A stretch of DNA of 64,000 nt, taken from Squalus acanthias. Its lineage: Eukaryota. The notes under the pieces were generated by a model. The model was not told where the DNA came from and did no database searches. It was given only the letters and a program-made list of their open reading frames with translations. Positions 1,471 through 41,243 of the stretch are shown here, one piece after another. The stretch spans positions 19,964,001 to 20,028,000 of the forward strand of contig CM059441.1 in NCBI GenBank assembly GCA_030390025.1, written 5' to 3'. Position 1 is the first letter of the stretch. Every line of letters begins with the position of its first letter. Made by a program: the position numbers and the translations under genes.

Positions 1471-1740
1471 TTAATCTGTCACATTAACACCACCTCTAGC
1501 CTTGCATATCTCTTAATGTCTCTTCATCTCCCCCTTTGTTCCTTTATCCCCTCCCCCTTTTCCCAGCTTTACCCTGGCCTTAAATCTATTTGATTTCCGG
1601 CTCTTCCCAGTTCTGATGAAAGGTCATCGACCTGAAACGTTAACTCTCTTTCTCTCCACGGATGCTGCCTGGCCTGCTGAGTTTTTCCAGCGTTTTCTGT
1701 TGTTTCGGATTTCCAGCATCCGCAGTATTTTGCTATCGTC
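1471..1740 (+). mobile_element. Non-autonomous Penelope-like element (family A) 3' end nested in CR1
   Basis: 11-bp TSD gaaatgtttcc at 1460-1470 and 1741-1751; same 3' sequence as the GIY-YIG-bearing copy at 26441-27636. Confidence 0.85.
1609..1645 (+). ncRNA. Minimal type I hammerhead ribozyme motif (family A)
   Basis: AGTT-CTGATGA-A-AGGTC-atc-GACCT-GAAAC-GTT-AACT: intact core, stem I AGTT/AACT, stem II AGGTC/GACCT, palindromic ACGT stem III; predicted cleavage after 1641. Confidence 0.75.
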
Positions 1741-3995
1741 GAAATGTTTCCCTGACTGTTAAGAGAAGTAAGAGAGGAAATAGCAGAGGTTCTGACCATT
1801 ATTTTCCAATCCTCTCTGGCTACAGGTGTGTTGCTGGAGGACTGCTAACGTGGTACCGTTGTTTAAAAAGGGAGAAAGGATAGACCGAGTAATTACAGGC
1901 CAGTCAGCCTAACCTCGGTAGTGGGAAAATTATTGGAAAAAATTCTAAGGGACGGGATAAATCTTCATTTAGAAAGACACGGATTAATCGGGGACAGTCA
2001 GCATGGATTTGATAAGGGAAGGTCGTGTCTGATTAACTTGATTGAATTTTTTGAGGAGGTAACGAGGAGGGTCGATGAGGGTAGTGCGTTTGATGTAGTC
2101 TGTATGGATTTTAGCAAGGCTTTTGATAAGATCCCGCATGGCAGACTGGTCATGAAAGTAAAAAGCCCATGGGATCCAAGGCAAAGTGGCAAGTTGGATC
2201 CAAAATTGGCTCAGACAGGAAACAAAGGGTAATGGTCGAAGGGTGTTTTGTGACTCTTTCCAGTGGGGTTCCGCAGGGCTCAGTACGGAGTCCTTTGCTT
2301 TTTGTGGTATATATCAATGATTTGGACTTGAATGTAGGAAGTATGATTAAGAAGTTTGCAGATGATACAAAAATTTGCCTTGTGGTTGATAATGAAGAAG
2401 AAAGCTGCAGGAAGATATCAATGAACTGGTCAGATGGGCAGAACAGTGGCAAATGGAATTCAATCTGGAGAAGTGTGAGGTAATGCATTTGGGGAGGGCT
2501 AACAAGGCAAGGGAATACACTATAAATGGTAGGACACTGAAGTGCAGAAGATCAGAGGGACCTTGGCGTGCATGTCCACAGGTCCCTGAAGGTAGCAGGA
2601 CAGGTAGATAAGGTGGTTAAGAAGGCATGCGGGATACTTGCCTTTATTAGCCGAGGCATAGAATATAAGAGCAGGGAGGTTATGCTTGAACTGTATGAAA
2701 CACTAGTTAGGCCGCAGCTGGAATACTGCGTGCAGTTCTGGTCACCACATTACAGGAAGGATGTGATTGCACTAGAGGGGGTGCAGAGGAGATTTACGAG
2801 GATGTTGCCTGGGCTGGGGAATTTTAGCTATGAGGAAAGATTGGATAGGCTGGGGTTTTCTTTGGAACAGAGAGGAGGCTGAGGGGGGACCTAATTATGA
2901 GGGGCCTAGATAGAGTGGCTAGGAAGGACCTATTTCCCTTAGCAGAGGGGTCAATAACCAGGAGGCAAAGATTTAAAGTAATTTGTCTGAGGTTTAGAGG
3001 GGATTTGAGGAGAAATGTTTTCACCCAGAGGGTGGTGGGGGTCTGGAACTCACTGCCTGAAAGGTTGGTAGAGGCAGAAACCCTCATCACATTTAAAAAG
3101 TACTTGGATGTGCAATTGAAGTGCCGTAACTTACAAGGCTACGGACCAAGTGCTGGAAAGTGGGATTAGGCTGGATAGCTCTTTGTCGGCTGGCATGGAC
3201 ACGATGGGCCGAATGGCTTCTTCTGTGCTGTAAATTTCTATGAAATGAAATCTTGTGGTTTTATTCATGCGTAATTCTATATTCTGTTTTGGGCGAAAAA
3301 CAGAAAGACATTCTGGATGTAAGTAATGCTGTGTAGTTACATTGCAAAACAACGTCAAGAAATAGTTGAGATATACTGCTGGGGACCCCATGCTGTGGCA
3401 CCAAGTCCTGCTCCTGTGGAGTGGTTTCTACAGTGCCTGCAGAATAGAAATACTGTACAATATTTTCTGCTTGCTATATATTCCCCAATGACTGGATGAG
3501 GTATCACAAGCCAGTGAGCGAATAACTGCATGGCAGACCTATTATGTTGGGTGTCTGAGCCTCTGTAAGCAGCACCGCTTGTTGTTGTTGAGGTAAGTCC
3601 TGCTGTTGGTTCGATTGGAAGGTATAACGTGTGCTTATTTAGGGCTTGCGTTAACAGTTGTCTAAGTGCTCGGTAATTTTAACTGCTTTTCTGTGAGCAT
3701 ATAGTATTATGTTGGTATCCTTTTTCAGTTTTAAGATGTTCATCAAACCATGTGTTTTATTTTGTCCTGTTTCTCGCGGTGAGCTGACTGGAGACAATTT
3801 TTGTTTTAAACTTGGTGGACGTCACGAAAAGTAAATGCAGGATGATTTGAAGTCTTCATTTGTTTCTGTTTCAGTGTAGATAGACGGTTAAAGGACAGGA
3901 GAGCCTCTGGTGACCCGATTTTAAGAAGGTTGCAGATTTATTGCTGGATAGTAAAAGGGGAGCATGAGGGAACTCCTTTCACCTGCAGTCCAAAT

Positions 3996-4134
3996 CAATG
4001 TGTGTTCTCTAATTTTTTTTTTTGGCTGCGCGGCCCATTCAAAATTTCGCACATGCACGAAATTTCCCATTCAAAAGCCGGTAAGCGGCCTGCGCGGGAC
4101 CTCCAGATGGCCGAGCAGCTTCGCGGGAGCATTG
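3996..4134. mobile_element. hAT-type MITE (CAATG termini)
   Basis: 8-bp TSD gtccaaat at 3988-3995 and 4135-4142; caatg...cattg ends; related to 33370-33544 and 50510-50672. Confidence 0.8.
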
Positions 4135-4604
4135 GTCCAAATAGCTTCATTTGTTGCCATTTAAGCAATTCTGGGGGTACAGTTGGAGGTGGCTAAAATA
4201 AACATGGTGGTCGTTTATCCTTTCTTAATGAATCTGGCTGGTTGGTATTCGAAAGTCATGTCATGTACATTTGCTAAATATGCTTGATCTGGACTCCACT
4301 GATTTTGAAGGCAAAAGTTCAGGAAGTTTCCCAAAGGCAAAACGTAGCCAGCATATTGTTTGCAAGCACTTACAGAAAGTTAACCTCTAGCTGATTTGTT
4401 AAATTACTATAATCTTCAATCTGCTCATTGGCAGCTGAGATTCCCGTCTGAAAGGAATGCATCTGGCCGGAAGCACGTGTCCTGTTTTGGAATCTGATCA
4501 CTCAATTTATTTATCCCTTCTTGGCTGCATGGCAGATGTAAGGATGTGTAGCAAAACATTTATTTTAGTTAAGTATGTTATAGGAAAGAGATAAAAGCAG
4601 TAGA

Positions 4605-5025
4605 AAATTTGCACCATAGATTTACTGGAATGTTACCGGGAATGAGGGGTTCTAGTTATGAAGAGACACTTGAGAAGGAAGAGCTTTTTTAATTAGGGCT
4701 GAGAAGGTTATGGGTAACCTGATGGAGGTCTTCAGGTTTGTAAAGAGTTATGATGAGGTAAATAGTGACTGTTTTCACTAGGTCAGCGAGACACTAATGA
4801 GAGGACACAAATGTAAGATGATCACCAAAAGAATTAAAGGCTTAGAATTGGAATTTTCTGCCACAAAATGTAGTTGAAGCAAATATGTACAAACTGTTCA
4901 TAAAAGAGGAAAAGAAAAGGCTATAGGGAGCAAGCAGGAGATGGTTAGAGTAGGTGGCTCAAAGAATAGTACCATTGCAGACTCAATGGGCCATTTGGCC
5001 CAGTTTCTGTGTTGTAACACTCTAC
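4605..5025 (+). mobile_element. Degenerate CR1 3' fragment
   Basis: Recognisable agatttactggaatgttacc...tatgaagagacact and CR1-like tail gtttctgtgttgtaac; boundaries approximate. Confidence 0.65.
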
Positions 5026-5480
5026 GCTTAAAATCTAACCAGTTTATAACGGAAAAGTTGTAGCCATAAAAATGCTCGAGTTGTACACTAGTTTGACTGT
5101 GTCGCCATTCAACTTCACCGAGCAATTCATCGAGCGGCATGCACTGATTGCATTAAAAGCATTTTTGAGGGCGGCTCCGTTGGGTATTCTTGTTTGGTAT
5201 GATTGTGTAAGGTGCATGTTCAACAGTTACTGCTATAACCTCCAATTTTATTAAAATATCGATGGAACAAGAGCTTAAGAGGATTGTTGCTGATTTGAGG
5301 ATTAACTTTTTTTAACCCAAACTATGGATACAAAACCTATATGGCCACAATGATAACCATTTTACCATCCATGTGGGTTGTACATTAGTGAGACTACTTA
5401 ATCCATTCCTTCTGTGAAACTCTGAATCAGATAGAATCAGTAAAGCTGATCACGGGACTGAAATCACTTCAATGATAAGA

Positions 5481-8050
5481 GAGGATTTAGAGAGGTAAGC
5501 AGCCAATGGAGACCTTATGGGTTGAATTAAGAAATAGGAAAGGATCTAAGCCTGTAGTGGGAGTTGTGTATCGGCCCCCTGGTGGCAGCTCTGAAGTGCT
5601 AGATTGTATAAATGCAGACATTAGATAAGCATGTAGCAAAGGCAGAGTGGTTTTAATGGGGGATTTTAACTTTCGTATAGGTTGGGAAAAGTAGACTGGC
5701 ACCTGTCCGAAAGGTAGTAAATTTCTTGTGTGTCTGGGATAGTTTTCTACAACAATATGTCCTAGAGGCAACAACAGGAGGAGGGGACCGAGTGTAACAT
5801 ATCAAAGTTTGCAGATGATACAAAGATGGGAGGGAAAGTAGAAAGTGAGGAGGACATAAAAAACCTACAAGGGGATATAGACAAGCTGGGTGAGTGGGCA
5901 GAGATTTGGCAGATGCAATACAATATTGGAAAATGTGAGGTTATGCACGTTGGCAGGAAAAATCAGAGAGCAAGTTATTATCTTAATGGCAAGAAACTGG
6001 AAAGTACTGCAGTACAAAGGGATCTGGGGATCCTAGTGCAAGAAAATCAAAGTTAGTATGCAGGTGCAGCAGGTGATCAAGAAGGCCAACGGAATGTTGG
6101 CTTTTATTGCTAGGGGGATAGAATATAAAAACAGGGAGGTATTGCTGCAGTTATATAAGGTATTGGTGAGACCGCATCTGGAATACTGCATACAGTTTTG
6201 GTGTCCATACTTAAGAAAAGACATACTTGCTCTCGAGGCAGTACAAAGAAGGTTCACTCGGTTAATACCCGGGATGAGGGGGTGGACATATGAGGAGAGG
6301 TTGAGTAGATTGGGACTCTACTCATTGGAGTTCAGAAGAATGAGAGGCGATCTTATTGAAACATATAAGATTGTGAAGGGGCTTGATCGGGTGGATGCGG
6401 TAAGGATGTTCCCAAGGATGGGTGAAACTAGAACTAGGGGGCATAATCTTAGAATAAGGGGCTGCTCTTTCAAAACTGAGATGAGGAGAAACTTCTTCAC
6501 TCAGAGGGCAGTAGGTCTGTGGAATTTGCTGCCCCAGGAAGCTGTGGAAGCTACATCATTAAATAAATTTAAAACAGAAATAGACAGTTTCCTCGAAGTA
6601 AAGGGAATTAGGGGTTACGGGGAGCGGGCAGGAAATTGGACATGAGGCTGAGTTCGGATCGGTCGAGGCCCTGTGGGTGGCGTAGCGGGCCCAGGGGCTG
6701 AGTGGCCGGGTCCTGCTCCTACTTCTTGTGTTCTTTAGATTTGAGGTGAGGATCAGATCAGCCATGATCTTATTGAATGGCGGAGCAGGCTCGAAGGGCC
6801 GATTGGCCTACTCCTGCTCCTATTTCTTATGTTCTTATAACAAGGGGGCAACCCATATTAGATTTAGTAATGAGTAATGAGCCAGATTTAGTTAACAGCC
6901 TAACTGCGTGAACATTTATCCAATAGCGATCATAACATGATCGAGTTCAACGTAGCTTTTGAAAGGGAGAAACGCGAAACAGCTACTAAGATTCTAGATT
7001 TAGGTAAGGTTGACTTCAACGGGATGAGGCAGAGACTGTCCACAGTAAACTGGGCAAATCTGTTAATGGGTAAAACGACAGAAGATCAGTGGGAGATGTT
7101 CAAAAAGAATTTAATGTGATACAGAACCAGTTTATACTCCTGAGGGGCAAGAGCTCTACTTGACAAAAAAAAAACGGCCACGGACAACTAAAGAGGTAAG
7201 GGACAGCATAAAACTAAAGGAAAGGCCATACAAAAATGTATGGACACACTCAAAATTCACTACCTTTCTGACAGGTGCCAGAAATAGCACCGATCCTGGC
7301 GAATGGGAAAGATGCAAAGAACAGCAAAAGTTCACAAAACAGATAGTAAGAGCTACAAAAAGGGAGTATGAAAAGAAACTTGCAAGGGATATCAAAATCA
7401 ACACAGAATTTTTGCAGTTATATTAGGAAAAAGAGGGTGGTCAGGAGCAATGTTGGCCCCTTAAAAACTGAAAGTGATATTGTCAATGACAATGTGGAAA
7501 TGGCGGACATTGTTGAATAATTACTTTGCGTCAGTATTTACAGTAGAAGAAGAGGATAGCATGCCGGAAATCCCAAAGAAACTAATATTGAATCGGGGAC
7601 AGGGACTCAATAAAAATCAATGTAAGTAAATTAACAGTAATGAAGAAGAGTGACAAATCCCCAGGGCGAGATGGTTTCCATCCCAGGATTTTAAAGGAAG
7701 TAAGTGAGCGCATTGCAGATGCCCTAACTATAATCTTCCAAAGTTCTCTAGATTCAGGAACCGTTCCTTTAGATTGGAAAATTGCACATGTCACTCTGCT
7801 TTTTAAGAATGGCTGAGCGGCAGGAGACAGAGTAGGGGTAATGGGTAGGCACTCAAATTGGCAGAATGTGACTTGTGGTGTTCCGCAGGGATCTGTGTTG
7901 GGGCCTCAACTATTCACAATATTTATTAACGACTTAGATGATGGTTTAGAAAGTCATGTATCCAAATTTACCGATAACACAAAGAGAGGCGGCTTTTGTA
8001 GGCAGTGTAGATTAAAGCATAAAATTACAACATGATCTCAATAGATTGTG
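5481..8050 (+). mobile_element. CR1 ORF2 fragment (host element) split by a younger CR1
   Basis: APE motifs VVYRPPG and MGDFN at 5520-5774 resume at 6839 (ILDLVMSNEP, SDHNMIEF); RT motifs [13 protein letters not shown] and KFTDNTK at 7841-8035. Confidence 0.85.
5776..6838 (+). mobile_element. 5'-truncated CR1/HER1 LINE (RT C-terminus + double 3' tail)
   Basis: KFADDTK, ORFs 5826-6056 and 6058-6645 with VRPHLEYCIQFW; tail ends ttcttatgttcttat. Confidence 0.93.
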
Positions 8051-8240
8051 AATGCTAGATTAGAGATCCCTGCTCCTTCAGTAACCAGAGCATCAATAAT
8101 GAGTTTGTCCTTCTGAAAGAGCTTTCAGGGGGAGGAGGCACCTTATTCGAGGAAACCTATTTCTCCCCTTCCTCCCTCCCAATTCTCGAGGCTTCAGCTA
8201 ACAAATTTTGTTCGGGTTGATGGATGGATGAATGAATACA

Positions 8241-8862
8241 TGACCAGAAACTTAACTGGACCAGCGACATAAATACTGGCAACAAGAGCAGGTCAGAGGC
8301 TGGGCATTCTTCGGCGAGTGTCCCACCTCCTGATTCCCCAAAGACCTTCCGCCATCTGCAAGGCACAGGTCAGGAGTGTGATGCCTGGATGAGTGCAGCT
8401 CCAACAACACTCAAAAAGCTCGACACCATCCAGGACAAAGCAGCCCACTTGATTGGCACCCCATCCACCACCTTAAAGATTCACTCCCTCCACCACCGGC
8501 GCACCGTGGCTGCAGTGTGTACCATCTACAAGATGCACTGCCAAGGCTTCTTCGACAGCACCTCCCAAACCCGTGACCTCTACCACCTAGAAGGACAAGG
8601 GCAGCAGGTGCATGGGAACACCATCACCTCCAAGTCACACACTGTCCTCACTTGGAAATATATCGCCGATCCTTCATCGTCGCTGGGTCAAAATCCTGGA
8701 ACTCCCTCCCTAACAGCACTGTGGCAGTACCTTCACCACACGGACTGCAGCGGTTCAAGAAGGCGGCTCAACACCACCTTCTCGAGGGCAATTAGGGATG
8801 GGCTTTAAATGCTGGCCTTGACAGTGACGCCCACATCCCAGGAACAAATAATTTAAAAAAAA
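8241..8862 (+). mobile_element. 3' fragment of a different CR1/L2-superclade LINE
   Basis: LDTIQDKAAHLIG, SLHHRRTVAAVCTIYKMH, WNSLP-type C-terminus, tail gggcaattagggatgg...cccacatccca + poly-A; related pieces at 61533-61786 and 23965-24028. Confidence 0.75.
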
Positions 8863-9104
8863 TGGAAGTTTCTTGAGAGAGATTTGACTTGTGTAGAGAC
8901 ATTAAAAAGTCCCAGGGTGTGCTGTTATGTCTCTAATGTTGGAAAAGATCCAACGGTCCTGTTGGATTTCGAGTGTTAGTTTAGGGCAGTCGGTTCACGG
9001 ATACACTGGCAAATAGAAGGAAATCTTTAGCTACATTTTGTATCCAGGTGTTATTAAACAAATAACACTAGAGTCTTCTCGGCTGAGGCACCTTTTTTAT
9101 TTGT

Positions 9105-9390
9105 TTTTGCGGTGGGTTTGTTGCCCATTGCTACTTGCCTTGACGGCATTAACATCGAAACACATTGCGTGGACTGGAATCGGGTGTAGGCCAGACCAGG
9201 TAGCAGTGGCAGGTTCCTGTCCCTGAAAGGCATTCGTGATCTAGTTGTGTTTTTAGGCAATCTGAGATTTTTCTGGTGATGGTCAATAAACTAGTAGATG
9301 TACTGAATTCAGTTTCACCGCTTGTCGTGGTGGTCTTTGACTTCACAATCTGTGGGTTTCCAGTCCAGTACTGTAACTGCTCCACCATTG
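9105..9390 (-). mobile_element. Degenerate tRNA-derived SINE (same family as 37355-37686)
   Basis: Shared blocks aggccagaccaggtagcagtggcagg and tgaattcagtttcacc; tRNA-like head at the right end. Confidence 0.5.
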
Positions 9391-9606
9391 TGTCATATAG
9401 CTTGCCTCACTGTGTGTGCTAAATAAGCATCAGCACACATTTCATGTTCGTGTTTATGAAGGAGCACAAAATGCTTTTAAAATCCTAAACTTTGTTAAAA
9501 AAATACAGCACTGTTTAAAAAATCCTGAATTGTGTTTAGTGGGACCAATATGAAAATGAGTAATGGTTGTATGGCTGAATTTCACAATTGTTCAATATTA
9601 TTATAG

Positions 9607-9762
9607 AAGGGGATTCTGGAAGTGATGCAGACTTTTATGTGGAAGATGATGATGACAGCGACTACGAGAGCTCTTTGAAGAAAAGCAAAAAGGGAAGGAA
9701 GACTAAAACAGTACCTGAAAAAAAAGAAAAGAAGACGCCCAAACCCAGGCTCAGCGCTACAG
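9607..9762 (+). CDS. NUCKS1: NUCKS1 penultimate coding exon (156 nt, phase 1-1)
   Basis: [52 protein letters not shown] matches human NUCKS1 [27 protein letters not shown]...KEKKMPKPRLKAT as I recall it; acceptor ttatag, donor G|GTAAGC at 9763. Confidence 0.93.
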
Positions 9763-10324
9763 GTAAGCTGCACGCTACTGTTAATGGAGAAGTTACCTTG
9801 CAGGGGATCGTCTCAAGTTCTCCTTGATAAACCACGGTTAAAGGCAAAGGGCCGTAGTATAGTTCACTTCCGTGAGTGTAAAAGAGAAGGCCAGGTAAAT
9901 CAAGTACTTGGGTGATGCTAAGCTTGGCTTTTAAAAGAATGCAGGTTAGAGAAAGGAGGCATGAGGTTCCACAGTTTTTAGATTCTGAGGGGAAAACTGA
10001 ATTGGTGTAGGAAACTGCGCTAAGTTTTCATTTCTACACGTGTAAGATGGGTGTATTTGGAGCCGTGAGGGAAAGTTAAAAGGAACATTGACTGACCAGA
10101 GTATCAATCAAATTGATCAGCGAGAGATGAAAAAGGTTGCAACAGAGAAAGTGGTTGGAAGTTAATTCAGGTGTGTCCTGGGGCATTGGTGCTTGTTGTG
10201 AATGGTTACTGTTGAAATCATTCTCCTGGTTTAAAAATACTCGTGCGAGGCTGCCCTGCTGGAAAAGTGATTTGCTGGTTTTATTTGCATTTGCTATCGT
10301 TTTTCATTCCCGTACTTTTGCCCA

Positions 10325-10460: not shown

Positions 10461-10957
10461 CATCGATTTGCATCCGCCCCCTGAGCTTTAGAACACCTAC
10501 TGAAACATCCTTTTTAATGTTTCAGCAGGGGTAGTCAAGATACAAAAACTAAATTTGAGAAAGGAGTATGATTTTTAAGACAATCTCTAATGTGATTGTA
10601 TATCGTACAGGTGTGTGCTCAAGCGTGTTTAAAGGTTCTAAACTTTTGTGAACACCGAATTCATGTCTCAAAGCTTCAAAATAAACACAGTTGTAACATG
10701 CAAGCAGCCTTTTTCTTTTCTCTTCCCTCAATTCTGCTAGATTGGAATTTGGGATGGATTTGCGATAGTCTATCTATCCACTAATACTAAAAATCTTACT
10801 CGGTAATGCTTCTCCAGATTTCAACAGAATTTAAGTCTTGATACTAGGTTTCTTTGGAAAAATAGTTGCGCCCAATAATGTCCAACTGTGCTGTTGCACG
10901 GCCAAGAATTGGTGCAGCACTTCAGTATTTGAGACATTATCACTCTATGATCTTTGA

Positions 10958-11073
10958 GAAGTCGCACAACACCAAGTTGCAGTCCAACAGTTTTATTTGA
11001 ACTGTTGGACTATAACTTGGTGTTGTGACTTCTCACATTTGTCCACCCCAGTCCAACACCGGCATCTCCACAT
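10958..11073 (+). mobile_element. Miniature hairpin derivative of Penelope-like family B
   Basis: 12-bp TSD tatgatctttga (10946-10957, 11074-11085); inverted arms match the outer ends of 39889-41334; same tail ccaccccagtccaacaccggcatctcc. Confidence 0.85.
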
Positions 11074-11509
11074 TATGATCTTTGAAGCACTTTTAATGAA
11101 CTTTCACCAAATTTGAACAAATTTCCCATGACCTAATTCTTGGCTCCTTTCAGCATTTGACCAGCTGTATTACTTTATTTATGCATGTATTTATGCAGTT
11201 TTGTAGAAATTAACAAGCATTAAATTTTAGCAAAACTTTTAAGTATGCTGTATTTTTACATACAGGCTTTTGAAAATTATTGCGTGCTATTGGCTTTTCA
11301 ACTTCCAAATGCAAGTAATTGGGCTGTCATTCAAATTGGATGGAAAGCGAAAAGGGACACTTCCCTTTTTAATTTTTTTTTATCACAAAACCGTGTCGGT
11401 AATATGGCCCTCCTTCACACCTGTTGTTACATGGCCTTATTCTGGAGGTACACCTCTTGTGATCACCACACAGCTCATTGTAGATTGCAGGCGGCCATTG
11501 AAGCTTTGG

Positions 11510-11949
11510 CAAAAGCAAAATACTGCGGATGCTGGAAATCTGAAGTAAAAAGAGAAAATGCTGGAAATACTCAGCAGGTTAGACAGCATCTGTGGAGAGA
11601 GAAACAGTTAACGTTTCCGATCGATCACCTTTCGTCAGAACTGGAAAATGTTAGAGATGTAACAGGTTTTAAGCAAGTGCAGGGGTAGGGAAAGGAGGGA
11701 GGGGAGGAAAGAACAAAAGGGAAGGTCTGTGATAGGATGGAAGGCAGGAGAGATTAAAAGACAAAAGGGATGATGGTGCAAGGCAAAAGGAGATGGGAAT
11801 GGGACAAGTAAAGAAGCAAAAGATAAGTCTAGAAGAGGTGTAAACAGGAAAGGCAGAATCAACAGCTGCCATGTGAAAAAATAGGGTGTCTCTCCACAGA
11901 TGCTGCCTGACCTGCTGAGTATTTCCAGCAATTTCTGTTTTTATTTATT
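11510..11949 (-). mobile_element. Penelope-like family A element with inverted 5' copy and degenerate hammerhead (11605-11643)
   Basis: 13-bp TSD attgaagctttgg (11497-11509, 11950-11962); about 11889-11946 is an inverted copy of about 11545-11600; core CTGACGA...GAAACGTT with mismatched stem II. Confidence 0.85.
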
Positions 11950-23394: not shown

Positions 23395-23535
23395 ATAACG
23401 TTTCAGGTCGATGACCTTTCTTCAGAATGTCAACTCTGTCTCTCGCTCCACAGATGCTGCCTGACCTGCTGAGCATTTCCAGCATTTTCTCTCTTTATTT
23501 CAGATTGCCAGCTTCCGCAGTATTTTTGCTTTTGT
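23395..23535. mobile_element. Rearranged Penelope-like family A miniature (hammerhead core on -, tail on +)
   Basis: 23397-23427 reverse complement is CTGAAGA-A-AGGTC-atc-GACCT-GAAACGTT; followed on + by ctccacagatgctgcc...cgcagtatttttgcttttg. No TSD seen. Confidence 0.7.
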
Positions 23536-26440: not shown

Positions 26441-27636
26441 AAAGCAAAATACTGCGGATGCTGGAAATCTGAAATAGAAACAGAAAATGCTGGAAATACT
26501 CAGCAGGTCAGGCAGCATCTGTGGAGAGAGAAACCGTTAGCGTTTCAGGTTGATGACCTTTTTGTCAGAACTGGAAAAGATTAAGAGGTGTAACAGGTTT
26601 TAAGCAAGTATAGAGATGGAAAAGGAGGACGGGAGGAAAGAACAAAAGGGAAGGTCTGTAATAGGATGGAAGACAGGAGTGATTAAATGACAAAAGGGAT
26701 GATGGTGCAAGGCAAAAGCAGATGGTAATGGGACAAGTAAAGAAACAAACGATGGGTCTAGAGGAGGTGTCAATGGGAATGGCAGAATCATCAGCAACAG
26801 CTGCCATCTGAAAAAATGGGGGCAAAGGTTATGATCTGAAATTGTTGAACTCAATGCTTTAAAGTGTCTAATAGGAAGATGAGTTGCTGTTCCTCGAGCT
26901 TACGTTGAGTTTCATTGGTCAGTGTTGGAGACCGAGGACAGAGTGAGAATGCTACCAGAAGCTTGGGGTCACGCTTGTAGACTGAACGGAGGTGTTCCGC
27001 AAAGCGGTCACCCAATCTGCATTTGGTCTCCCCAATGTAGAGGAGACCGCATCGTGAGCACCGAATACAGTATACTAAATTTGAAAAAAGTATAAGTAAA
27101 TTGCGGTTTCATCTGGAAGTAGTGTTTGGGGCCCTCGACTGTAGGAAGGGAGGAGGTAAAAGTGCAGGTGTTGCATCTCCTGCGCTTGCACGGGAAGGGG
27201 AGTGGGTGTTGGGGGTGATAGAAGACTGGACCAGGGTGGCGGTCCCTTCGGAATGCTGAAAGGGTGGGGGTGGGGGGGAGGGGAAGATGTGTTTGGTGGT
27301 GGGATCACGCTGGAGGGGGCGGAAATGGTGGAGGATGATCCGTTGAATGTGGAGGCTGGTGGGGTGAAAGGTGAGGACAAGGGGAACCCTATCGTGGTTC
27401 TGGGAGGGAGGGGAAGGGGTGAGAGCAGAAGTGCGGGAAATGGAGCGGATTCGGTCGAGGGCCTTGTCATCGCGATGGAGGGGAATCCTCGGCTGAAGAC
27501 AAAAGAAAGACATATCGGAAGTACTAGTATGGAAGGTGGCATCGTTGCAACAGAGACGGAGAAATGGAATAGAGTCCTTCCAGGAAGTGGGGTGGGAGGA
27601 AGTGTAGTCAAGGTAGCTGTGGGAGGTGGTGGGCTT
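26441..27636 (-). mobile_element. Penelope-like retroelement family A, 5'-truncated, with decayed RT C-terminus and GIY-YIG endonuclease
   Basis: Minus strand RVPLVLTFHPTSLHIQRIIL and NLVYCIRCSRCGLLYIGETKCRLGDRFAEHLRSV...QRKLEEQQLIF...EFNNF; 10-bp TSD atattgtgca (26431-26440, 27637-27646); decayed hammerhead at about 26535-26573. Confidence 0.9.
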
Positions 27637-28388
27637 ATATTGTGCAGCTCATCCGGAATAGACTTTTAGCCAAGAATGCTTATTTTCTTGGCTAGAAAAT
27701 TGAATCATTTGGCACAGGGAATGTTTGAGGCAAGGATCATTGTATCCTTTCAAGTAAAATGGATAAATATTTGAAACCAAGGGAAATAGACGATGGGGAG
27801 AGTGGAGTTCAGTGGGATTAGTTTTGGAATAACCTAGCAAAGAGCTGGCATAGCCATGATGGACCGAATGGCCTCTTTCTGTGATGCAAATGTAATTGCC
27901 CTGTGAAACAAACAGAGTCACGGTTGTCATCCGCAACTTCACCTCAATTACACCTTCTAACCTTAAATGCATTCCAATGCATCAAATTCCTGTCCTTCTA
28001 ACAACACAGCAGCTGCCTTGCCACGGGAGATTTGCTTGTCTTGCCTGATTTTTCTAAACTTTCTTGGTCCCACCTTAGCGGTTATGATCCATAGTTTGAC
28101 TCTTAATCCAGTCACGTGCATGAGCTGTGAAAGACTTTGCCAAATAGAGAACCGTTGCTGCTGGCTGAGAGATCCCATCCACAATCGCCAGCCACCCAAT
28201 CATTCCGCAACCAGACAACTCTCCCTGCAGCACAGCAACAGGGCCTCTCAAATAAGGTGCTGGTGCTTTCAAAGTCCAATTAGTATAACTTTTTATGGCC
28301 TTGATTGAGGAAGTTCGATAAAAGAAAAGGCACATCACCCCAAAAAAAAAAGTGAACTTTTACACAAGCGGCATAGCAAAGAAGGTTG

Positions 28389-30720: not shown

Positions 30721-30806
30721 TCGAAAGAATACATAGTTTGAGGAATGATTACAGTATATCTTGCATTTTTAAAGTTTTATTTTTTTATAGCGCCAGTTAG
30801 TGAAAT

Positions 30807-32508: not shown

Positions 32509-32519
32509 CTCGGGGGGGA

Positions 32520-32696: not shown

Positions 32697-32807
32697 CGGA
32701 GTTTTCTGTTTCTTTTAAAAAAGGTAACTTTTTCTCAAAAACTCCACTTGTACTCGATCACTAATTAAAGCCTATTTAAAGGTGCAGTTATACTACAGTG
32801 TGAGATT

Positions 32808-33326
32808 GATACCTTACCTAAGAAAGGATATACTTGCCATAGAGGGAGTGCAGCGAAGGTTCACCAGACTGATTCCTGGGATGGCAGGACTGTCGTATGA
32901 GGAGAGATTGGGTCGACTAGGCCTGTATTCACTAGAGTTTAGAAGAATGAGAGGGGATCTCATTGAAACGTATAAAATTCTGACAGGGCTAGACAGACTG
33001 ATGCAGGGAGGATGTTTCCCCTGGCTGGGGGGGGGGGGGTCTAGAACGAGGGGTCACAGTCTCAGGATACGGGGTAGAACATTTAGGACTGAGATGAGGA
33101 GAAATTTCTTCACTCAGTGGGTGGTGAACCTGTGGAATTCTCTACCACAGAAGGCTGTGGAGGCCAAGTCACTGAATATATTTAAGAAGGAGACAGATAG
33201 ATTTCTGGACACAAAAGGCATCAAGGGGTATGGGGAGAGAGCGGAAATATGGTATTGAGATAGAGGATCAGCCATGATCATATTGAATGGCCTACTCCTG
33301 CTCCTATTTTTCTATGTTTCTATGTT
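32808..33326 (+). mobile_element. CR1 3' fragment
   Basis: PYLRKDILAIEGVQRRFTRLIPG...WNSLP; tail ctatgtttctatgttt. Confidence 0.9.
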
Positions 33327-33369
33327 TTAGAGCAACAAGGGACTGACGAGAGCAAGTTGTACTGCCAGC

Positions 33370-33544
33370 CAATGTTCCCTGCGAGCGGTGCTGTGTTGCG
33401 CGCGGCATGCTTCTTTCAATGCGCGCTCCCTTTAAAGTTCTGCGCTGCGCGGTATTTCTAGTGTAAAAGCTCGTGAGCGGCCTGCGCGGGACCTTTCACA
33501 TTACTGCGCAGGCCGCGCACACGTGCAGCTTCGAGGGAGCATTG
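33370..33544. mobile_element. hAT-type MITE
   Basis: TIR caatgttccct / agggagcattg; 8-bp TSD ctgccagc (33362-33369, 33545-33552). Confidence 0.85.
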
Positions 33545-33784
33545 CTGCCAGCCCTGCCTCAATCTACAGTCCGGGAACTTTAAGATGCCCTCACTAGTAT
33601 CTCCATGTCAATTAAATTTTAATGATAGCAAAGAGAGCAAATGGAATGTTGGTTCTTCGTTAACATTAAAAAGGTTAAAAATGAAGACGTTAAAAATTCC
33701 CTACTGGTCTGTCGGACTGCCTGGCAATTATTACATTTCACTTTGCACGCACTGAAGTTACGATGCAGCTGTTGCCTACTACCT

Positions 33785-34155
33785 CATCGATGTTGTAATG
33801 TAGGGAAGGAAACAGATAATTTGTGCACAGCAAGGTCCCACAAACAGCATTGAGGTAAGTGGCCAAACAATTTCTTTTTTTAGTGATGTTGGGTGAGGGA
33901 GAAATGATGTCCAGGATACTTGGAGAACTCCCCCGCTCTTCTTCGAAATAGTGCCATGGGATCTTTTACATCCACCTGAGAGAGCAGATGGGGCCTCGGT
34001 TTTACATCTCATCTGAAGGATGGCACCTCCGACAGTGCAGCACTCCCTCAGCACTGCACCGGAGTGTCAGCCTAGATTATGTGCTCAAGTCTCTGGAGTG
34101 GGACTTGAACCCACGGCCTTCTGACTCCGAGGCGAGAGTGCTACCCACTGAGCCA
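33785..34155 (-). mobile_element. SacSINE1-like Deu-SINE
   Basis: Deu domain and tRNA-like head. Confidence 0.8.
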
Positions 34156-35162
34156 AGAAATGTGGAAAGGAGCACATTCACACTTAATGTTATTATTGAA
34201 GTCAAAGATAAATCTCAGGTTTGCAGAATAGATACAGACGAGGAAGCCATTCGGCCCATCTTCGCACCTCTATCCAGAAAGATGTTATCTGCATTTCACT
34301 AAACCAAAGTTCATTCCAAGTGTTGATCATTTTGTGTACAAAGAACTTCCTAACATCATTTGCAGTTGCTGCTTTCTGCCCTGAAGTTATACCCGTTTGC
34401 CCTAGTGCAATGGTATGATTTGGAGTAGTATTCCAGGTTTACCTTTTCTAAACTGTCTATTGCATTCTACACCTCTAAAGGGGGCCTGTCAGTCTCTTCC
34501 TTTTGAAGGCTGAAGTGCCCGAGGTTTATCCAGTCTTTGCCTGTAACTCAGACCCCTGATACTAGCTACCAAACTTACATTGTATACGTGTAACGGAAGC
34601 CTCACACTCACTAATGCTATTATTCTACCTACTTTTTACTCAATAAGATTCAACGTGCAGTTTCACCACGTATTGCAGATTAACTGCTACGAGGAGATCA
34701 TTAACAGCTTCCTGTCACCTGGCCGAGACAGGAAAGTACCTTTTGCTGGCAATCCAGTCAAAAACAGCAGGTTTTCTTTCTTTATTATCAGATTAATAGG
34801 TCAGTTATACCTTGCACTTTGCACATTGAAGACTGCGGCAATGCCTCTGTACTCAAGACGATGAAAGTAAGATTCCCCCAGCTCAGTGTTCTCAGCTTAA
34901 AGCTCTTCTTTCTTTGACACATTGGTTTCATTGGCTCTTGTCTGAACTTCAACCAAGTGGCCACTTTTCATGTGTGAGCCCAGAAAGTGAGTGTCAGATT
35001 GTTTTTGGTGATGGAGGATTGAACAAACAGTTCTCCAGGTCTGTGCAGTATACGCCCCACTGAGTCATTGCAGACCAAGAACAAATTGTATTCTGATCAG
35101 GGAGCAGTGAATGATTTGTGGCCTTGGGACGTTTTGCTATGTTGAAGGTGCTGTATTAATGC

Positions 35163-35540
35163 AAGATTCTGAAGGGGATTGACAGGGTAGATGCTGAGAA
35201 GTTGTTTCCCCTGGCTGGAGTGTCTAGAACTCGGGGGCATAGTCTCAGGATAAGGGGTAGTCCATTTAAGACTGAGATGTGGAGGAATTTTTTCACTCAG
35301 AGGGTTGTGAATCTTTGGAATTCTCTGCCCCAGAGGGCTGTGAATGCTGAGTCTTTGAGTATATTCAAGGCTGAGATCGATAGATTTTTGGATTCTAGGG
35401 GAATCAAGGGATATGGAGATCGGGCGGGAAAGTGGAGTTGAGGTCGAAGATCAGCCATGATCTTATTGAATGGTGGAGCAGGCTCTAGGGGCCGTATGGC
35501 CGACTCCTGCTCCTAATTCTTGTGTTCTTATGTTCTTATA
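35163..35540 (+). mobile_element. CR1 3' fragment
   Basis: ORF 35202-35441 and tail ttcttgtgttcttatgttcttat. Confidence 0.88.
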
Positions 35541-35883
35541 AGTTGTTGTATTTTGTACCAAGAAAATTTGTAGTTAATTACTCTTGAGAGACTCTTGAGA
35601 GTAGAATTTCTGATTAGTGTTACCCGTTTGTTATAATGTTGATTGGAACATCTACATGTTGCTGTTTGTGGAGTGCGATATAGTCCGTGATATTTCTTAT
35701 AGCCCCGTGATGCAGCGTAATACCATACGGTGGCGCTGCTGAGCAGCAGTTGACGCAGCCTGGCGATTTGGTTTTTTCTAATGAGATTAAAAATTGTGCT
35801 AAGAATTTGCATATAGTGGACTGTCATATGCAGAAAATACAAGTTGCTTTGAACCATGGCGTTTTGCGCACTATTGGGGGGGG

Positions 35884-36278
35884 GGGGGTGAAATTCAACT
35901 TTGCGGGGGGGCACAGAACGGGCAACAATGGATCAGCCACCCAGTATACACCCCGCTGGTGTCAGCTGTGGCTCAGTGGGCAGCACGCTCACCTCTGGAT
36001 CAGAAGGTGGTGGGTTCAAGTCCCACTTCCAGAGACCTGATTATCTGGTCGTTATCTCATTGCTGTTTGTGGGAGCTTAGCTTGCTGTGCGCAAATTGGC
36101 TGTTGCGTTTCTTACATTACAACAGTGACTACACTTCAAAAAGTCCTGAGGTGTTTATAAAAATGGAAAGTCTTTCTTTTTGAAAGGAAAATCAGGCAGG
36201 GTTGTACAGCGGGTGACCGATCCATGACTGCCTGTTTTTACCCCCCCGCCGCCGCCGCCGAAGTCGAATTTCACCCCC
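35884..36278. mobile_element. Palindromic MITE interrupted by an internally deleted SacSINE1-like copy (35959-36180, +)
   Basis: Ends ggggtgaaattcaactt / aagtcgaatttcacccc; SINE head gtcagctgtggctcagtggg and tail inside. Confidence 0.6.
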
Positions 36279-36321
36279 ACGTCTTCAAAAGCCGTTGGTG
36301 TGCTGGATATGGTTCACGGAA

Positions 36322-36780
36322 GAAAGAACGACTTGCATTTCTATAGCGCCTTTCACGACCTCAGGACGTCCCAAAGCGCTTTACAGCCAATGAAGTACTT
36401 TTTGAAGTGGAGTCACTGTTGTAATGTAGGAAACACGGCAGCCAATTTGCACACAGCAAGCTCCCACAAACAGCAAAGAGATAATGACCAGATCATCTGT
36501 TTTAGTGATGTTGATTGAGGAATAACTATTGGCCAGGACACCGGGGAGAACCCCCTGCTCTTCTTCGAAATAATGCCATGGGATCTTTTACGTCCGCCTG
36601 AGAGGGCAGCTGAGGCCTCGGTTTAATGTCTCATCTGAAAGGCGGCACCTCCGACAGTGCAGCACTCCCTCAGTACTGCACTGGAGTGTCAGCCTAAATT
36701 TTTCTGCTGAAGTGAGACTTGAACCCACAACCTCCTGACGCAGAGGCGAGGGTGCTACCCACTGAGCCACTGGCTGACAC
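36322..36780 (-). mobile_element. SacSINE1-like Deu-SINE
   Basis: Full-length copy. Confidence 0.82.
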
Positions 36781-37354
36781 TTAAAAGGGCAACAGGGATA
36801 AGTTCAGGACCTATATTCATGCAGATTTTGTTTTTGTTGTTCTGACAGCACAATCCGTAACCAATGCAGAGGTGCCTGAGCATTTAAACTATGTGTGATG
36901 GTCTCAGACAACATTAAATATCCCTTCACAAATGTAAGGAATGGATCTTAATTACTACTGTAGGTGTAAGAAGGATTATCCAATCATCTGTAGCTAAAGA
37001 AATCACAACACCCAGTCAGGCTGTAGCTGTAGTACTTGTGTAAGGACATTCTGCGGCCGCTATATTGCTCCAGGGTCGGTCTTTACTGATCTCTCTCATC
37101 TGTTGAGATCCACTGTGAACTTGCCACGAGTCAAATCATAGAACATGCCCATTCTGGGATCAGTATGGCTCCCTCCTGCCCACGTGCTTTAAATGGCACT
37201 GCAGCAACCTTTCCTTTTAGTAGGAGTCCCTATGGCAAGGTGCAACCATCCAAGTCCCACGATGCTTGGTAAGACAAATTTGTCACGAGATGTTGGGCCT
37301 TGAGATTCCTGGAACTGCCCGCCAGTCTGCCCCAGATCTTGCAGGTGGAGCCAT

Positions 37355-37686
37355 TTTAAAAATTATTTGTTCCTGGCGGCGTCGCTGGCAAGGCCAGCAT
37401 TTATTGCCCATCCCTAACTGCCCTTGCTAGGCCATTTCAGAGGGCAGTTAAGAGTCAAACATATTGCTGTGGGTCTGGAGTCACCTACAGGCCAGACCGG
37501 GTAAGTACGGCAGATTTTCCTTTCCCAAAGGGCATTATTAATACAATCCGGTAGTTTCATGGTCACCATTACTGAATTCCAGATTTATTTAATTAACTGA
37601 ATTTAAATTCCCCAGGCTGGTAGTGGTGGGATTTGAACGCTTGTCTCTGGGTTACTCATCCAGTAACATTGACACTATGCTACCGT
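37355..37686 (-). mobile_element. tRNA-derived SINE sharing its 3' tail with the LINE at 8241-8862
   Basis: Minus-strand head ggtagcatagtgtcaatg...gttcaaatcccacc; tail gggcagttagggatgggcaataaatgctggccttgccagcg. Confidence 0.65.
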
Positions 37687-38420
37687 TCCCTTATTTGCAC
37701 ACAGGCGCCACAGGGGACTATGAATCTCAGACTGGCCCTTCGCCAATTCACTGGTGGAGGGGGAGCGAACCTTTCTGCTGGAAGATCTGGGTTTTGTTTT
37801 AACACCCATTTTGCTGCTTTCCTGTCCTGTGGTCGTGACAGGTGCTATATAAATGCAATACTTTATTGTTTCCTTTTTTGCTTGAATACAGTTGGGTTGG
37901 TTTGAGCATTGCAAATATTAAGAGCACTATATAAATGTAAGCTGTTTTAGAGGCTTCTTTTAATTTAATTTTCAGTGGAAACTAAGTCACTTTGGCTAAT
38001 TAAACAGGAAACGTGTAAAATTCAGTGAGAGCATCATAAACACCAATTTTCGCACGGCGGTTTCGACAGTCAGCAGAACAAGCTTTCTTCTTACACAATG
38101 ACAGCAAGGTCAGATTTGAGAGATGCCTTTTTGAAAACAAAGGGCCAGCCACAATGGTTTCACGGAAACAGAGACGCACCCACTTGCAATCATCTCAAAC
38201 CCATGAAGGTTTCCAAGCAACCGACCTCAGACCACAAACAGGTTTGCTGTCCAACAGCATCAGCAGTGTCTGTCAGAATACATTGTGGGAGTTGTAGTTT
38301 TTGCAGTCACACACAGGAGGAGCTGTTTCTGGAGAGAACACCCCCCTCCACAATGCTGGGTATGATATTAATACTGCAGTGTACAACAACATTACCTGGT
38401 GGATAGAAAGTACTTCCTAC

Positions 38421-38872
38421 AGTGCCAGCTGTGGCTCAGTGGGTAGCACGCTCGCCTCTGAGTCAGAAGGTTGTGGGTTCAAGTCCAACTCCAGGGACTT
38501 TGAGCACATGAAGCTGGGCTGACACTCCAGTGCAGTGCTGAGAGAGTGCTGCACTGTCGGAGGTGCCGTCTTTCAGATGAGACATTAAACCGAGGTCTCG
38601 TCAGCTCTTTCAGGTGGATGTAAAAGATCCCATGGCACTATTTCGAAGTAAGAGCAGGAGAGTTATCCCCCATGTTCTGGCCAATGTTTATCTTTCAATC
38701 AACATCACAAAAACAGATTATCTGGTCATTGTCACATTGCTGTTTGTGGGAGCTTGCTGTGCGCAAATTGGCTGCCGCATTTCCAACAGTGACCACACTC
38801 CAAAACTACTTCATTGGCTGTAAAGTGCTTTGAGGTGGTCGTGGAAGGCGCTATATAAATACAAGTCTTTCT
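38421..38872 (+). mobile_element. SacSINE1-like Deu-SINE
   Basis: A box tggctcagtggg, B box ggttcaagtcc, Deu domain, tail. Confidence 0.82.
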
Positions 38873-39938
38873 TACAACCCAGTGGTTACGAAGGGGAAGG
38901 GGGAAATGTTCATCCTACATATAACCATAAAATATTTAAGGAGCCGTCAGCGTAGTAATGGATATGTCCCTTGTTTGTTGTAAATTTTTGAAGATCATGC
39001 AGTTATCACAAAGAAACACTGATTTACCATTGCATAATAACAGAGCTGGAAAATATGGGAGTCATCTCCGATCCCTCACCCCATCCCCACTCCCCCCAAA
39101 AGCAGTTCAGAGAGCAGTGGTAATATATTTATTTCTGCGCCCCAGTTCAAAAATTTCTTCTGGAAGTTGAACAATTTTAGTTGTGTAAAAACCTAATTTT
39201 ACTTTTTTTTAAATTTCCCTTTTCCCCCACAGTTGGAAAAAGTTATGCTGTGGAGTACAAGAGGGTAGAGGTCATGCTGCAGCTATACAAAGCCCTGGTT
39301 AGAACACACCTGGAGTACTGTGAGCAGTTCTGGGCACCATACCTTAGGAAGGATATGTTGGCCCTGAAATTCGCCTCTCCGGCTTGCCGCGGGGGTAAGG
39401 ATCGCGCGCGCACTTACCTACCGCGCCTGCCGTTGTGTTTTGGGCCCACGGGAACTTCAGCTCCTGGGCCTGCTCCAACTGCCGGCGCGCAGTGCTTGCG
39501 TGTCCCAGGGGCCCAGTTAGTGCGATGCGTCCCCTGAGATCACGTGGGCCATGGAGAGCCAATGGCAGCAGACCATCTTTCATTCATAGATTTGACAGGA
39601 AGACCTGTCAAATCTGTGAATTGAAATCGGCCCCAAAAGAACAGCTAAACTTCAAATAAATTTTTTTAAAAACCATCACATTTATAAAATAACTATAGTT
39701 AAATAAATTAACCACTTTAAACAAAAATTTAAATTTGAGAAATTTAAAATACTTTTTAAAAGTGAAAAAATTAACTTACCTTTCTTTAAAGTATCTAAAA
39801 AAGATAAACTTGTTGAAATTTTTTAAAAATTATACTTAATTAACCACTTACCTTGTTGAAAACGGCTCCTGCGCCTCCTTTTTATAAAAATGAGAAGTCG
39901 CACAACACCAGGTTATAGTCCAACAGTTTTATTTGAAA

Positions 39939-39975
39939 TTACGAGCTTTCGGAGCGCTGCTCCTTCGTCAGGTAA
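39939..39975 (-). ncRNA. Minimal type I hammerhead motif (family B, inverted arm)
   Basis: Exact reverse complement of 41207-41243. Confidence 0.72.
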
Positions 39976-40428
39976 AGTGAGGGAATACAAATCGATTACA
40001 AAGTATATATAGACAGAGAACAATGTGTCTGCAGAGATACAATCCGTCAGGGAGGCATTACATCAAAGACACAGCAGAATACAGCTAAGACAATGAGGTG
40101 GGGTCACAGGGGGTCCAACGTGTCAAATGCTGCAGTCTGCAGTTAAGCTTTTTACTTTTTTTAAAAACTGGAAATCACATCTGTGAACAAGACAACGACG
40201 ACTCTAGTCTGGACTCTAGTCTGGACTCTAGTCACGTCCTGTAGCGTGACATGAAACCGAGATCCCAGTTGAGGCCATCCTCATGGGTGCGGAACTTGGC
40301 TATCAGTTTCTGCTCGATGATTTTGCGTTGTCGTGTGTCTCGAAGGCCACCTTGGAGAACGCTTACCCGCAGATCCGAGGCTGAATGTCCTTGACTGCTG
40401 AAGTGTTCCCCGACTGGGAGGTAACATC

Positions 40429-40962
40429 CCCACGCCTCCACTACTCGCCTTCAAGCAGCCGCCTAACCTCAAAAGTACCATCGCTCACAGCAAATTACCC
40501 AGCTGTCAGGAGAACAGCGACCACGACACCACACAACCCAGCCACGGCAACCTCTGCAAGACGTGCCAGATCATCAACACAGATACCATCATCACACGTG
40601 AGGACACTACCCACCAGGTACATGGTACATACTCATGTGACTCGGCCAACGTTGTCTACCTCATACGTTGCAGGAAAGAATGCACCGCGGCATGGTACAT
40701 CGGCGAGACCATGCAGACACTGAGACAACGTATGAACGGACACCATGCAACAATCGCTAGGCAAGATTGTTACCTCCCAGTCGGGGAACACTTCAGCAGT
40801 CAAGGACATTCAGCCTCGGATTTGTGGGTTAGCGTTCTCCAAGGCGGCCTTCGAGACACACGACAACGCAAAATCATCGAGCAGAAACTGATAGCCAAGT
40901 TCCGCACCTTTGAGGACGGCCTCAACCGGGATCTCGGTTTCATGTCACGCTACAGGACGTGA
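40429..40962 (+). pseudogene. 5'-truncated but open GIY-YIG endonuclease domain of Penelope-like ORF
   Basis: Stop-free frame PPLLAFKQPPNLK...LCKTC...YSCDSANVVYLIRCRKECTAAWYIGETMQTLRQRMNGH...PVGEHF...RKIIEQKLIAKFRT...GLNRD. Confidence 0.88.
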
Positions 40963-41206
40963 CTAGAGTCCAGACTAGAGTCGTCGTTGTCTTGTTTACA
41001 GATGTGATTTCCAGTTTTAAAAAAAAGTAAAAAGCTTAACTGCAGACTGCAGCATTTGACACGTTGGACCCCCTGTGACCCCACCTCATTGCCTTAGCTG
41101 TATTCTGCTGTGTCTTTGATGTAATGCCTCCCTGACGGATTGTATCTCTGCAGACACATTGTTCTCTGTCTATATCTGCTTTGTAACAGATTTGTATTCC
41201 CGCACT

Positions 41207-41243
41207 TTACCTGACGAAGGAGCAGCGCTCCGAAAGCTCGTAA
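41207..41243 (+). ncRNA. Minimal type I hammerhead ribozyme motif (family B)
   Basis: TTAC-CTGACGA-A-GGAGC-agc-GCTCC-GAAA-GCTC-GTAA: stem I TTAC/GTAA, stem II GGAGC/GCTCC, palindromic AGCT stem III; predicted cleavage after CUC at 41239. Confidence 0.78.

What the first reader, a model, noticed from the sequence alone, without database searches (positions are those of the whole stretch)
1609..41243. Two sequence-unrelated Penelope families share an identical 37-nt minimal hammerhead architecture
Seen: family A (1609-1645) reads AGTT CTGATGA A AGGTC atc GACCT GAAAC GTT AACT; family B (41207-41243) reads TTAC CTGACGA A GGAGC agc GCTCC GAAA GCTC GTAA. Most stem positions differ, yet all pairing is kept. 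Both have a 4-bp stem I, an extra A after the CUGANGA core, a 5-bp stem II with 3-nt loop, and a loopless palindromic stem III (ACGT vs AGCT). Known: Penelope-like elements carry minimal type I hammerheads thought to cleave as dimers via palindromic stem III. Inference: these shark motifs are functional self-cleaving RNAs that process element transcripts; the GUU and CUC triplets and A insertion may make standard models miss them.
Basis: partly seen in the sequence, partly recalled or inferred. Interest (0 to 1): 0.8.

Follow-up and report, generated by a model that had tools for sequence, protein, structure and literature searches.

The report
Known-type hammerheads in two Penelope retroelements
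The two 37-base motifs are real copies of the stripped-down hammerhead RNA motif already described in the ends of Penelope-like jumping genes; they come from two related, very abundant families of this genome and likely cut their own element's RNA only in pairs, but cutting is untested and the kind is ordinary.

Summary
Observation confirmed letter for letter. Both motifs sit in the terminal repeats of Penelope-like retroelements. A ends a 3,199-bp unit with a long open RT/GIY-YIG frame; B follows a GIY-YIG frame. The families share no DNA similarity, but their proteins are 32% identical with Neptune-type motifs, so the shared shape is most simply inherited. In 1.39 Mb of evenly spaced genome, 40 motifs passed a structure filter (shuffles 0-3), all A or B: about 100,000 genome-wide. 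Only 20 of 40 have the exact 37-nt geometry. The extra A, short stem I, palindromic loopless stem III, GUU/CUC triplets and covarying families within one genome are all in Cervera and De la Pena 2014. Rfam misses both motifs. Cleavage is untested: the two window copies are truncated or inverted and have no same-strand partner in the window, no RNA run was available, and copies do not start at the cut site. The scan reported this before on other DNA (e1-7857333, e1-7858245). New member of a known kind.

The parts
1609..1645 (+). Family A minimal type I hammerhead motif; predicted cut after 1641 (GUU)
   Evidence: sequence; descriptor hit
1471..1740 (+). 5'-truncated 3' end (part of pseudo-LTR plus tail) of family A Penelope-like element, inserted in a LINE-like coding remnant (host repeat read by eye)
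   Evidence: 41 scored genome matches of 448 candidates share it; GIY-YIG hit in 14 of 30 loci
1460..1470 (+). left copy of 11-bp target-site duplication of insert A
1741..1751 (+). right copy of 11-bp target-site duplication of insert A
41207..41243 (+). Family B minimal type I hammerhead motif; predicted cut after 41239 (CUC)
   Evidence: sequence; descriptor hit
39939..39975 (-). second, identical family B motif in the inverted arm of the same insertion
40402..40962 (+). C-terminal piece of family B ORF: CX4CxxC linker and GIY-YIG endonuclease with CCHH residues
   Evidence: 186-aa stop-to-stop frame; about 35% identical to frames upstream of family A copies
39886..41334 (+). whole family B insertion: 541-bp inverted arm (39886-40426, 94.8% identical to 40768-41296) plus direct arm ending in the tail; flanked by a 10-bp target-site duplication (39876-39885 and 41335-41344)
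11514..11717 (-). older family A copy; motif at 11606-11642 keeps the core but only 3 of 5 stem II pairs
26443..27642 (-). older family A copy with ORF remnant (26829-27642, 78% identical) and a mutated core
58471..58600 (-). short family A 3' end with G8 changed
23398..23526 (.). short inverted pair of family A fragments, motif split

Best explanation
The two motifs are minimal type I hammerheads in the pseudo-LTRs of two homologous Penelope-like retrotransposon families (likely Neptune clade) and likely cut the element's own RNA only when two copies of the same family pair, probably with protein help. Shown: intact family A elements are direct tandems with one motif at each end of a 3,199-bp unit, so one transcript holds two motifs. 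Inferred: the palindromes (ACGU in A, AGCU in B) of two copies pair into a shared 4-bp helix III, the stem I strands swap, and each core cuts its partner after U17/C17, releasing unit-length RNA with ends that could be ligated. Inferred: the shared geometry was inherited from a common ancestor and kept by selection in the mobile master lineages. The two window copies are likely inert by-products of 5'-truncated or inverted insertion. Cleavage is likely a side step or late step, not a requirement for insertion.
For: Element context: GIY-YIG upstream in 14 of 30 A loci; A and B proteins 139/432 identical, both with CX4CxxC and CCHH residues, the pattern Craig et al. give for Neptune-type endonucleases (PMC8557442 passages). 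11 of the 12 A loci fetched for a 1004-codon frame show a motif at both ends of the unit (in L169 the fetched stretch ends before the 3' repeat); unit 3,199 bp. Enrichment: 40 descriptor hits in 139 stretches (1,389,500 bases) vs 0-3 per shuffled set, 7 in 20 sets; 40 of 40 have the extra A, 39 of 40 have ACGT or AGCT after GAA. Constraint: departures from the majority base at 11 core positions vs 3' flank: A 19/427 vs 266/3328, B 1/280 vs 58/1660 (Fisher p 0.008 and 0.002; cells are not independent). Within B a stem I pair switches between C-G and U-A, while N7, H17 and loop II vary freely. Literature: same consensus, dimer model and low dimer cleavage in PMC4209133; core-dependent, protein-assisted cleavage for the anole element in PMC11167929.
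Against: No cleavage was measured. The catalytic dimer fold is far from the minimum-energy fold (AA -9.7 vs -19.3, BB -15.1 vs -24.3 kcal/mol), and monomer A prefers a hairpin that buries the core. Family A mostly has A-U or G-U at pair 10.1-11.1, not the consensus G-C. Genomic copies give no sign of templates cut at the site: all 11 full-length A loci run through both motifs; the 4 of 73 A hits that start at the cut are not cDNA ends where this could be checked (2 have the missing half about 750-850 nt upstream of another insert, 1 is target-site overlap, 1 unresolved); 0 of 33 B hits start there. For the anole element the ribozyme was not needed for insertion in vitro and no RNA reads ended at the cut; only 1 of 9 Xenopus dimers cleaved. 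The alignment behind one search was hand-picked from intact copies and two clades dominate it.
Confidence: 0.7

Rival explanations
1. The motif is a hammerhead by descent but is kept as a protein-binding or folding element of the pseudo-LTR (near where reverse transcription starts) and rarely or never cuts in the cell.
For: Weak predicted dimer fold; no fossil of cut templates; core mutants do not affect insertion in vitro for the anole element and Naiads thrive without canonical motifs; the two fixed 3' ends lie 50-110 nt past the motif in both families.
Against: The positions conserved are the catalytic ones, while N7, H17 (C or U in nearly all) and loop II drift as a cleavage model predicts; the anole motif does cut in a core-dependent way when protein is present.
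Confidence: 0.2
2. The cut serves translation control: it removes the capped leader and leaves the ORF to be started from a downstream AUG on an uncapped or circular RNA.
For: In intact A elements the frame is open through the motif; in 11 of 12 the first AUG is A6-U7-G8 of the core, 26 nt before the cut, with further in-frame AUGs 22 and 139 nt after it; in B the likely AUG is 91 nt after the cut. The anole ORF also starts inside its hammerhead. Viral type I hammerheads have been tied to translation (PMC13725137, title and passages).
Against: Only 5 of 18 sampled A motifs have U7, so the core AUG is not family-wide; one intact A frame has ACG there (L169); B has no such overlap.
Confidence: 0.07
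3. A and B acquired or converged on the same geometry independently.
For: No DNA similarity outside the core; 32% protein identity means a deep split.
Against: Same position in homologous elements; the same consensus runs through 56 motifs of 40 animal species; half of the sampled motifs depart from the 37-nt geometry.
Confidence: 0.03

Closest known systems
Minimal hammerheads (min-HHR) of metazoan Penelope-like elements (Cervera and De la Pena 2014, PMC4209133)
   Same: Type I; CUGANGA-H core; short helix I; no loop 3, palindromic 15.2/16.2; NUH triplets including GUU, CUC, CUU; in both pseudo-LTRs of about 3-kb elements; mostly solo or opposite-strand pairs; several covarying families per genome. 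The lamprey example has the same stem I strands as the commonest B subfamily.
   Different: No cartilaginous fish among the 56 motifs of 40 species. Estimated 76,000-146,000 intact motifs here vs about 4,000 and 9,000 in coelacanth and Xenopus (different descriptors). Family A mostly lacks G10.1-C11.1 (a few published examples do too).
PAc, Poseidon element of Anolis carolinensis (Frangieh et al. 2024, PMC11167929)
   Same: Hammerhead in the pseudo-LTR overlapping the ORF start, cut 26 nt after an AUG; two fixed 3' ends 30-40 nt apart (the tail), seen here at about +68/+100 (A) and +55/+94 (B) from the cut.
   Different: Poseidon, without the CX2-5CxxC linker found in A and B; its AUG lies at the start of stem II, in young A copies inside the core; PAc was assayed, A and B were not.
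Small Penelope-associated hammerhead variants that cleave as dimers (Lunse, Weinberg, Breaker, RNA Biol 14:1499)
   Same: Dimer cleavage of small PLE hammerheads, as summarised in review PMC6765202.
   Different: Paper not held: I saw only its title and the review's sentence, so I cannot say whether it lists shark examples.
Non-LTR retrozymes (Li et al. 2026, bioRxiv 10.64898/2026.07.22.740005)
   Same: Type I hammerheads derived from PLE pseudo-LTRs; reported in the one chondrichthyan genome sampled, with canonical and minimal models.
   Different: Retrozymes are short non-coding tandem repeats; the window copies are dispersed truncated ends of coding elements. Supplements not seen.

Membership tests
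PLE minimal type I hammerhead | Core C3 U4 G5 A6 N7 G8 A9 / G12 A13 A14 A15.1 / U16.1 H17 | tested here: met
   both motifs; all 11 core bases intact in 20 of 29 A and 23 of 24 B copies spanning the motif
PLE minimal type I hammerhead | One unpaired base between A9 and 10.1 | tested here: met
   40 of 40 descriptor hits, although the descriptor allowed none
PLE minimal type I hammerhead | Palindromic 15.2/16.2 with no or palindromic loop 3 | tested here: met
   39 of 40
PLE minimal type I hammerhead | Short open helix I, paired helix II, with covariation | tested here: met
   8 of 11 pairs change on both sides in 10 chosen copies; slid controls 20-44% paired; mostly between families, one stem I pair within B
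PLE minimal type I hammerhead | G10.1-C11.1 pair (consensus above 80%, not universal) | tested here: inconclusive
   met in B; A mostly has A-U or G-U; exceptions exist in the published list
PLE minimal type I hammerhead | Located in the pseudo-LTRs of a Penelope-like element | tested here: met
PLE minimal type I hammerhead | Self-cleavage as a dimer | not testable with these tools
   needs an assay; no run on record as RNA was listed
Penelope-like element, EN+ Neptune clade | Single ORF with RT and C-terminal GIY-YIG with CCHH | tested here: met
   Pfam RVT_1 and GIY-YIG hits are weak, below curated cut-offs
Penelope-like element, EN+ Neptune clade | CX2-5CxxC linker before the endonuclease | tested here: met
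   CX4CxxC in both families; definition from PMC8557442 passages
Penelope-like element, EN+ Neptune clade | Partial tandems, inverted 5' copies, 30-40 bp tail | tested here: met
Penelope-like element, EN+ Neptune clade | RT groups with reference Neptune elements in a tree | not tested
   no named reference proteins were fetched
Rfam hammerhead families | Score against a curated model | tested here: not met
   no hammerhead family at E up to 5 (whole window) or 10 (181-base stretches)
Non-LTR retrozyme | Short non-coding tandem repeat with a hammerhead in each unit | tested here: not met
   window copies are solo or inverted ends of coding elements

The most novel reading that the evidence does not exclude
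This genome holds on the order of 100,000 intact minimal hammerheads from just two Neptune-type families whose stem I and helix III strands cannot pair across families, a family-specific self-recognition code; and in the youngest family A elements the start codon is part of the catalytic core, so dimer cleavage would act as a switch between two ways of translating the element's protein.
Probability: 0.1. Interest if true: 0.55.

Novelty: new member of a known kind. Interest (0 to 1): 0.2.

Why it matters
The kind has been known since 2014, so the catch adds a lineage, not a mechanism. Its practical value: family A has many near-identical copies with open 1004-codon frames in natural tandems, which makes it a clean substrate for the still open question of what Penelope hammerheads do in the cell; and Rfam scans miss what is probably the commonest ribozyme-like motif in this genome (about 29 per Mb).

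Tried and rejected
Rfam: no hammerhead hit; the MIR3627 hit at 51953-52047 is below its gathering score and was not followed. Expression: no RNA holder listed; only assembled contigs were available, which cannot show ends, strand or level. Laying 4 of the 17 runs on B and 4 on an adjacent A+B stretch showed both families in runs labelled with other organism codes but no joint with splice-type ends among the 15 listed, so the idea of an intron acceptor in or after the motif is neither supported nor excluded. Fossil of cleaved templates: an apparent pile of A 5' ends at the cut (4 of 73, plus 2 within 3 nt) was rejected: in 3 of the 6 examined the missing half lies about 750-850 nt upstream (another element inserted at the triplet), 1 is target-site overlap, 2 unresolved. 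Variant cores (U3-A8, G3-C8): 1 hit each in 1.39 Mb, neither family-like. Apparent 2-5 kb tandems on C3546, C2835 and C3249 are truncated A ends carried within a 29-bp satellite, not full elements. A-B heterodimer: rejected by sequence (stem I 0-1 of 4 pairs, helix III 2 of 4) and by an unfavourable forced-fold energy. Shark-specific literature: searches and the supplement search found no description of these families; Repbase/Dfam, the Lunse paper and bioRxiv supplements were not visible, so absence from print is not shown.
Full report
Observation. The predicted cuts fall after 1641 and 41239. A loose core pattern is not enriched in the window (6 matches, shuffle mean 5.22), but a descriptor that demands the core, stem II, A15.1...U16.1-H17 and stem I finds 3 sites, the third being an identical B copy on the minus strand, against none in 100 shuffles. 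Rfam finds no hammerhead family in the window or in 181-base stretches around each motif.

Family A. The motif lies in a 270-bp insert (1471-1740) between 11-bp target-site duplications. A genome search scored 40 of 448 candidates and gave 41 matches. In 14 of the 30 loci fetched, a GIY-YIG frame about 35% identical to B's lies upstream. A protein search with a 456-aa piece scored 93 of 94,563 candidates, all 98-100% identical, many in long open frames. I fetched 12 loci chosen for a 1004-codon frame: 11 show a motif at both ends of the unit, and the twelfth stretch ends too early to tell. The unit is 3,199 bp; the two ends within a locus differ by 0-2 substitutions in 190 bases, mean 2.2 between loci. 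So A is the 3' end of a young Penelope-like element organised in direct tandems.

Family B. The motif follows a 186-aa GIY-YIG frame. The insertion 39886-41334 has an inverted 541-bp arm and a 10-bp duplication. A genome search gave 45 matches from 40 scored of 2,191 candidates; 20 fetched loci share the 3' end within a few bases, and about half have an inverted arm. Long frames of up to 908 codons exist but many carry stops.

Relationship. A and B show no DNA similarity but their proteins align at 139/432 identities, E 3e-60, both with CX4CxxC and CCHH residues. By the definitions in Craig et al. 2021 (PMC8557442, passages) that points to the Neptune clade; no tree was built.

How common, and how identical. 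In 139 evenly placed 10-kb stretches of the large contigs (1,389,500 bases) the descriptor found 40 motifs, 18 A and 22 B and no third family; 20 shuffled sets gave 0-3 each (an earlier run on the first 79 stretches gave 14). That is 29 per Mb, or about 107,000 (76,000-146,000) if small contigs behave alike. All 40 have the extra A, 39 have ACGT or AGCT, but only 20 have the exact 37-nt geometry: B's loop II is 3, 4, 8 or 9 nt and its stem II 5 or 6 bp. Core positions depart from the majority less often than the 3' flank (A 19/427 vs 266/3328; B 1/280 vs 58/1660), with the caveat that inherited changes count many times. Within B one stem I pair switches between C-G and U-A. This reads as selection on the master lineages; dispersed copies decay (9 of 29 A copies spanning the motif have a damaged core, 1 of 24 B).

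Mechanism. Shown: two same-family motifs per transcript unit in intact A tandems; palindromes able to form a 4-bp intermolecular helix III; no such pairing between A and B. Inferred from the published dimer model: strands swap and each core cuts its partner, giving unit-length RNA. Against: the dimer fold is 9-10 kcal/mol above the minimum-energy fold; A mostly lacks G10.1-C11.1; full-length insertions run through both motifs; 5' ends do not mark the cut once other inserts are accounted for. Both families have two fixed 3' ends 30-40 nt apart, 50-110 nt beyond the cut, the tail signature that Frangieh et al. tie to internal priming on uncut RNA. The window copies themselves are unlikely to act: A has no intact same-strand partner in the window, and B's twin is antisense, so a read-through RNA would form a long hairpin. 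No RNA data could test this.

Comparison with what is known. Cervera and De la Pena 2014 (PMC4209133; I read parts 1-2 of 4 of the text and parts 1-2 of 3 of supplementary file 2; file 1 unreadable) give the consensus NNN CUGANGAH GNNNNN...NNNNNC GAAAN-palindrome-NU H NNN, list the extra base, the palindrome and covarying families per genome as hallmarks, and show GUU, CUC and CUU triplets; dimers cut weakly. No cartilaginous fish is in their list. Frangieh et al. 2024 (PMC11167929, parts 1-2 of 4) found the anole motif protein-assisted and dispensable for insertion in vitro. Li et al. 2026 (bioRxiv 10.64898/2026.07.22.740005, parts 1-3 of 5, no supplements) report such motifs in one chondrichthyan genome and cleavage in 1 of 9 Xenopus dimers. 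PMC6765202, PMC6155905, PMC8557442 and PMC13725137 were seen as passages. Lunse et al. was not held. Earlier notes of this scan reached the same reading on other DNA; they are not evidence.

Verdict. A correct catch of a known motif in a lineage for which my searches found no description. What stands out is the number, the intact young family A, the lack of cross-family pairing, and an in-frame AUG inside the core of the youngest A copies (11 of 12 intact frames, but 5 of 18 sampled motifs). Interest 0.2; new member of a known kind.

Noticed in passing
L164 2396-2432 and ten other full-length family A loci: The 1004-codon frame runs through the hammerhead; its first AUG is A6-U7-G8 of the core, 26 nt before the cut. 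L169 has ACG there.
   Followed up: partly
   Followed up: partly
L005-L009, just past the family A tail: 5 of 30 loci continue with the same 50 bases after the tail, so another element sits at a fixed point there; earlier notes call it a Tx1-type LINE.
   Followed up: no
G000 C3546:216000-235999, C2835:264000-273999, C3249:52000-61999: Truncated family A ends recur every 1.8-3.6 kb inside a 29-bp satellite array, apparently amplified with it.
   Followed up: partly
window 1604-1610 and 1646-1664; window 41296-41311: Pyrimidine tracts ending in AG, like splice acceptors, overlap stem I of A, precede a conserved ATG 20 nt after A's cut in older copies, and lie in B's tail; Drosophila Penelope has an intron ending at helix I. 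Contigs showed no splice joint.
   Followed up: partly
window 41250-41255: AATAAA about 10 nt after the predicted cut in family B, conserved in sampled copies.
   Followed up: no
window 10955-11083: Small inverted pair made only of family B sequence downstream of the motif.
   Followed up: no
L165 (minus strand 9236-9472) and L169: Family A and family B insertions lie directly adjacent or nested, in line with PLEs inserting near each other.
   Followed up: no
window 51953-52047: Near-perfect long inverted repeat that scores weakly against MIR3627 (43 bits, gathering 64); related sequence at 38571-38604; probably two opposed SINE fragments (label recalled).
   Followed up: no
family A motifs in all loci: The core can pair with the helix III strand in an alternative hairpin; none of the listed A variants has both C7 and C17, the combination that would make it fully Watson-Crick. 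May be ancestry only.
   Followed up: partly
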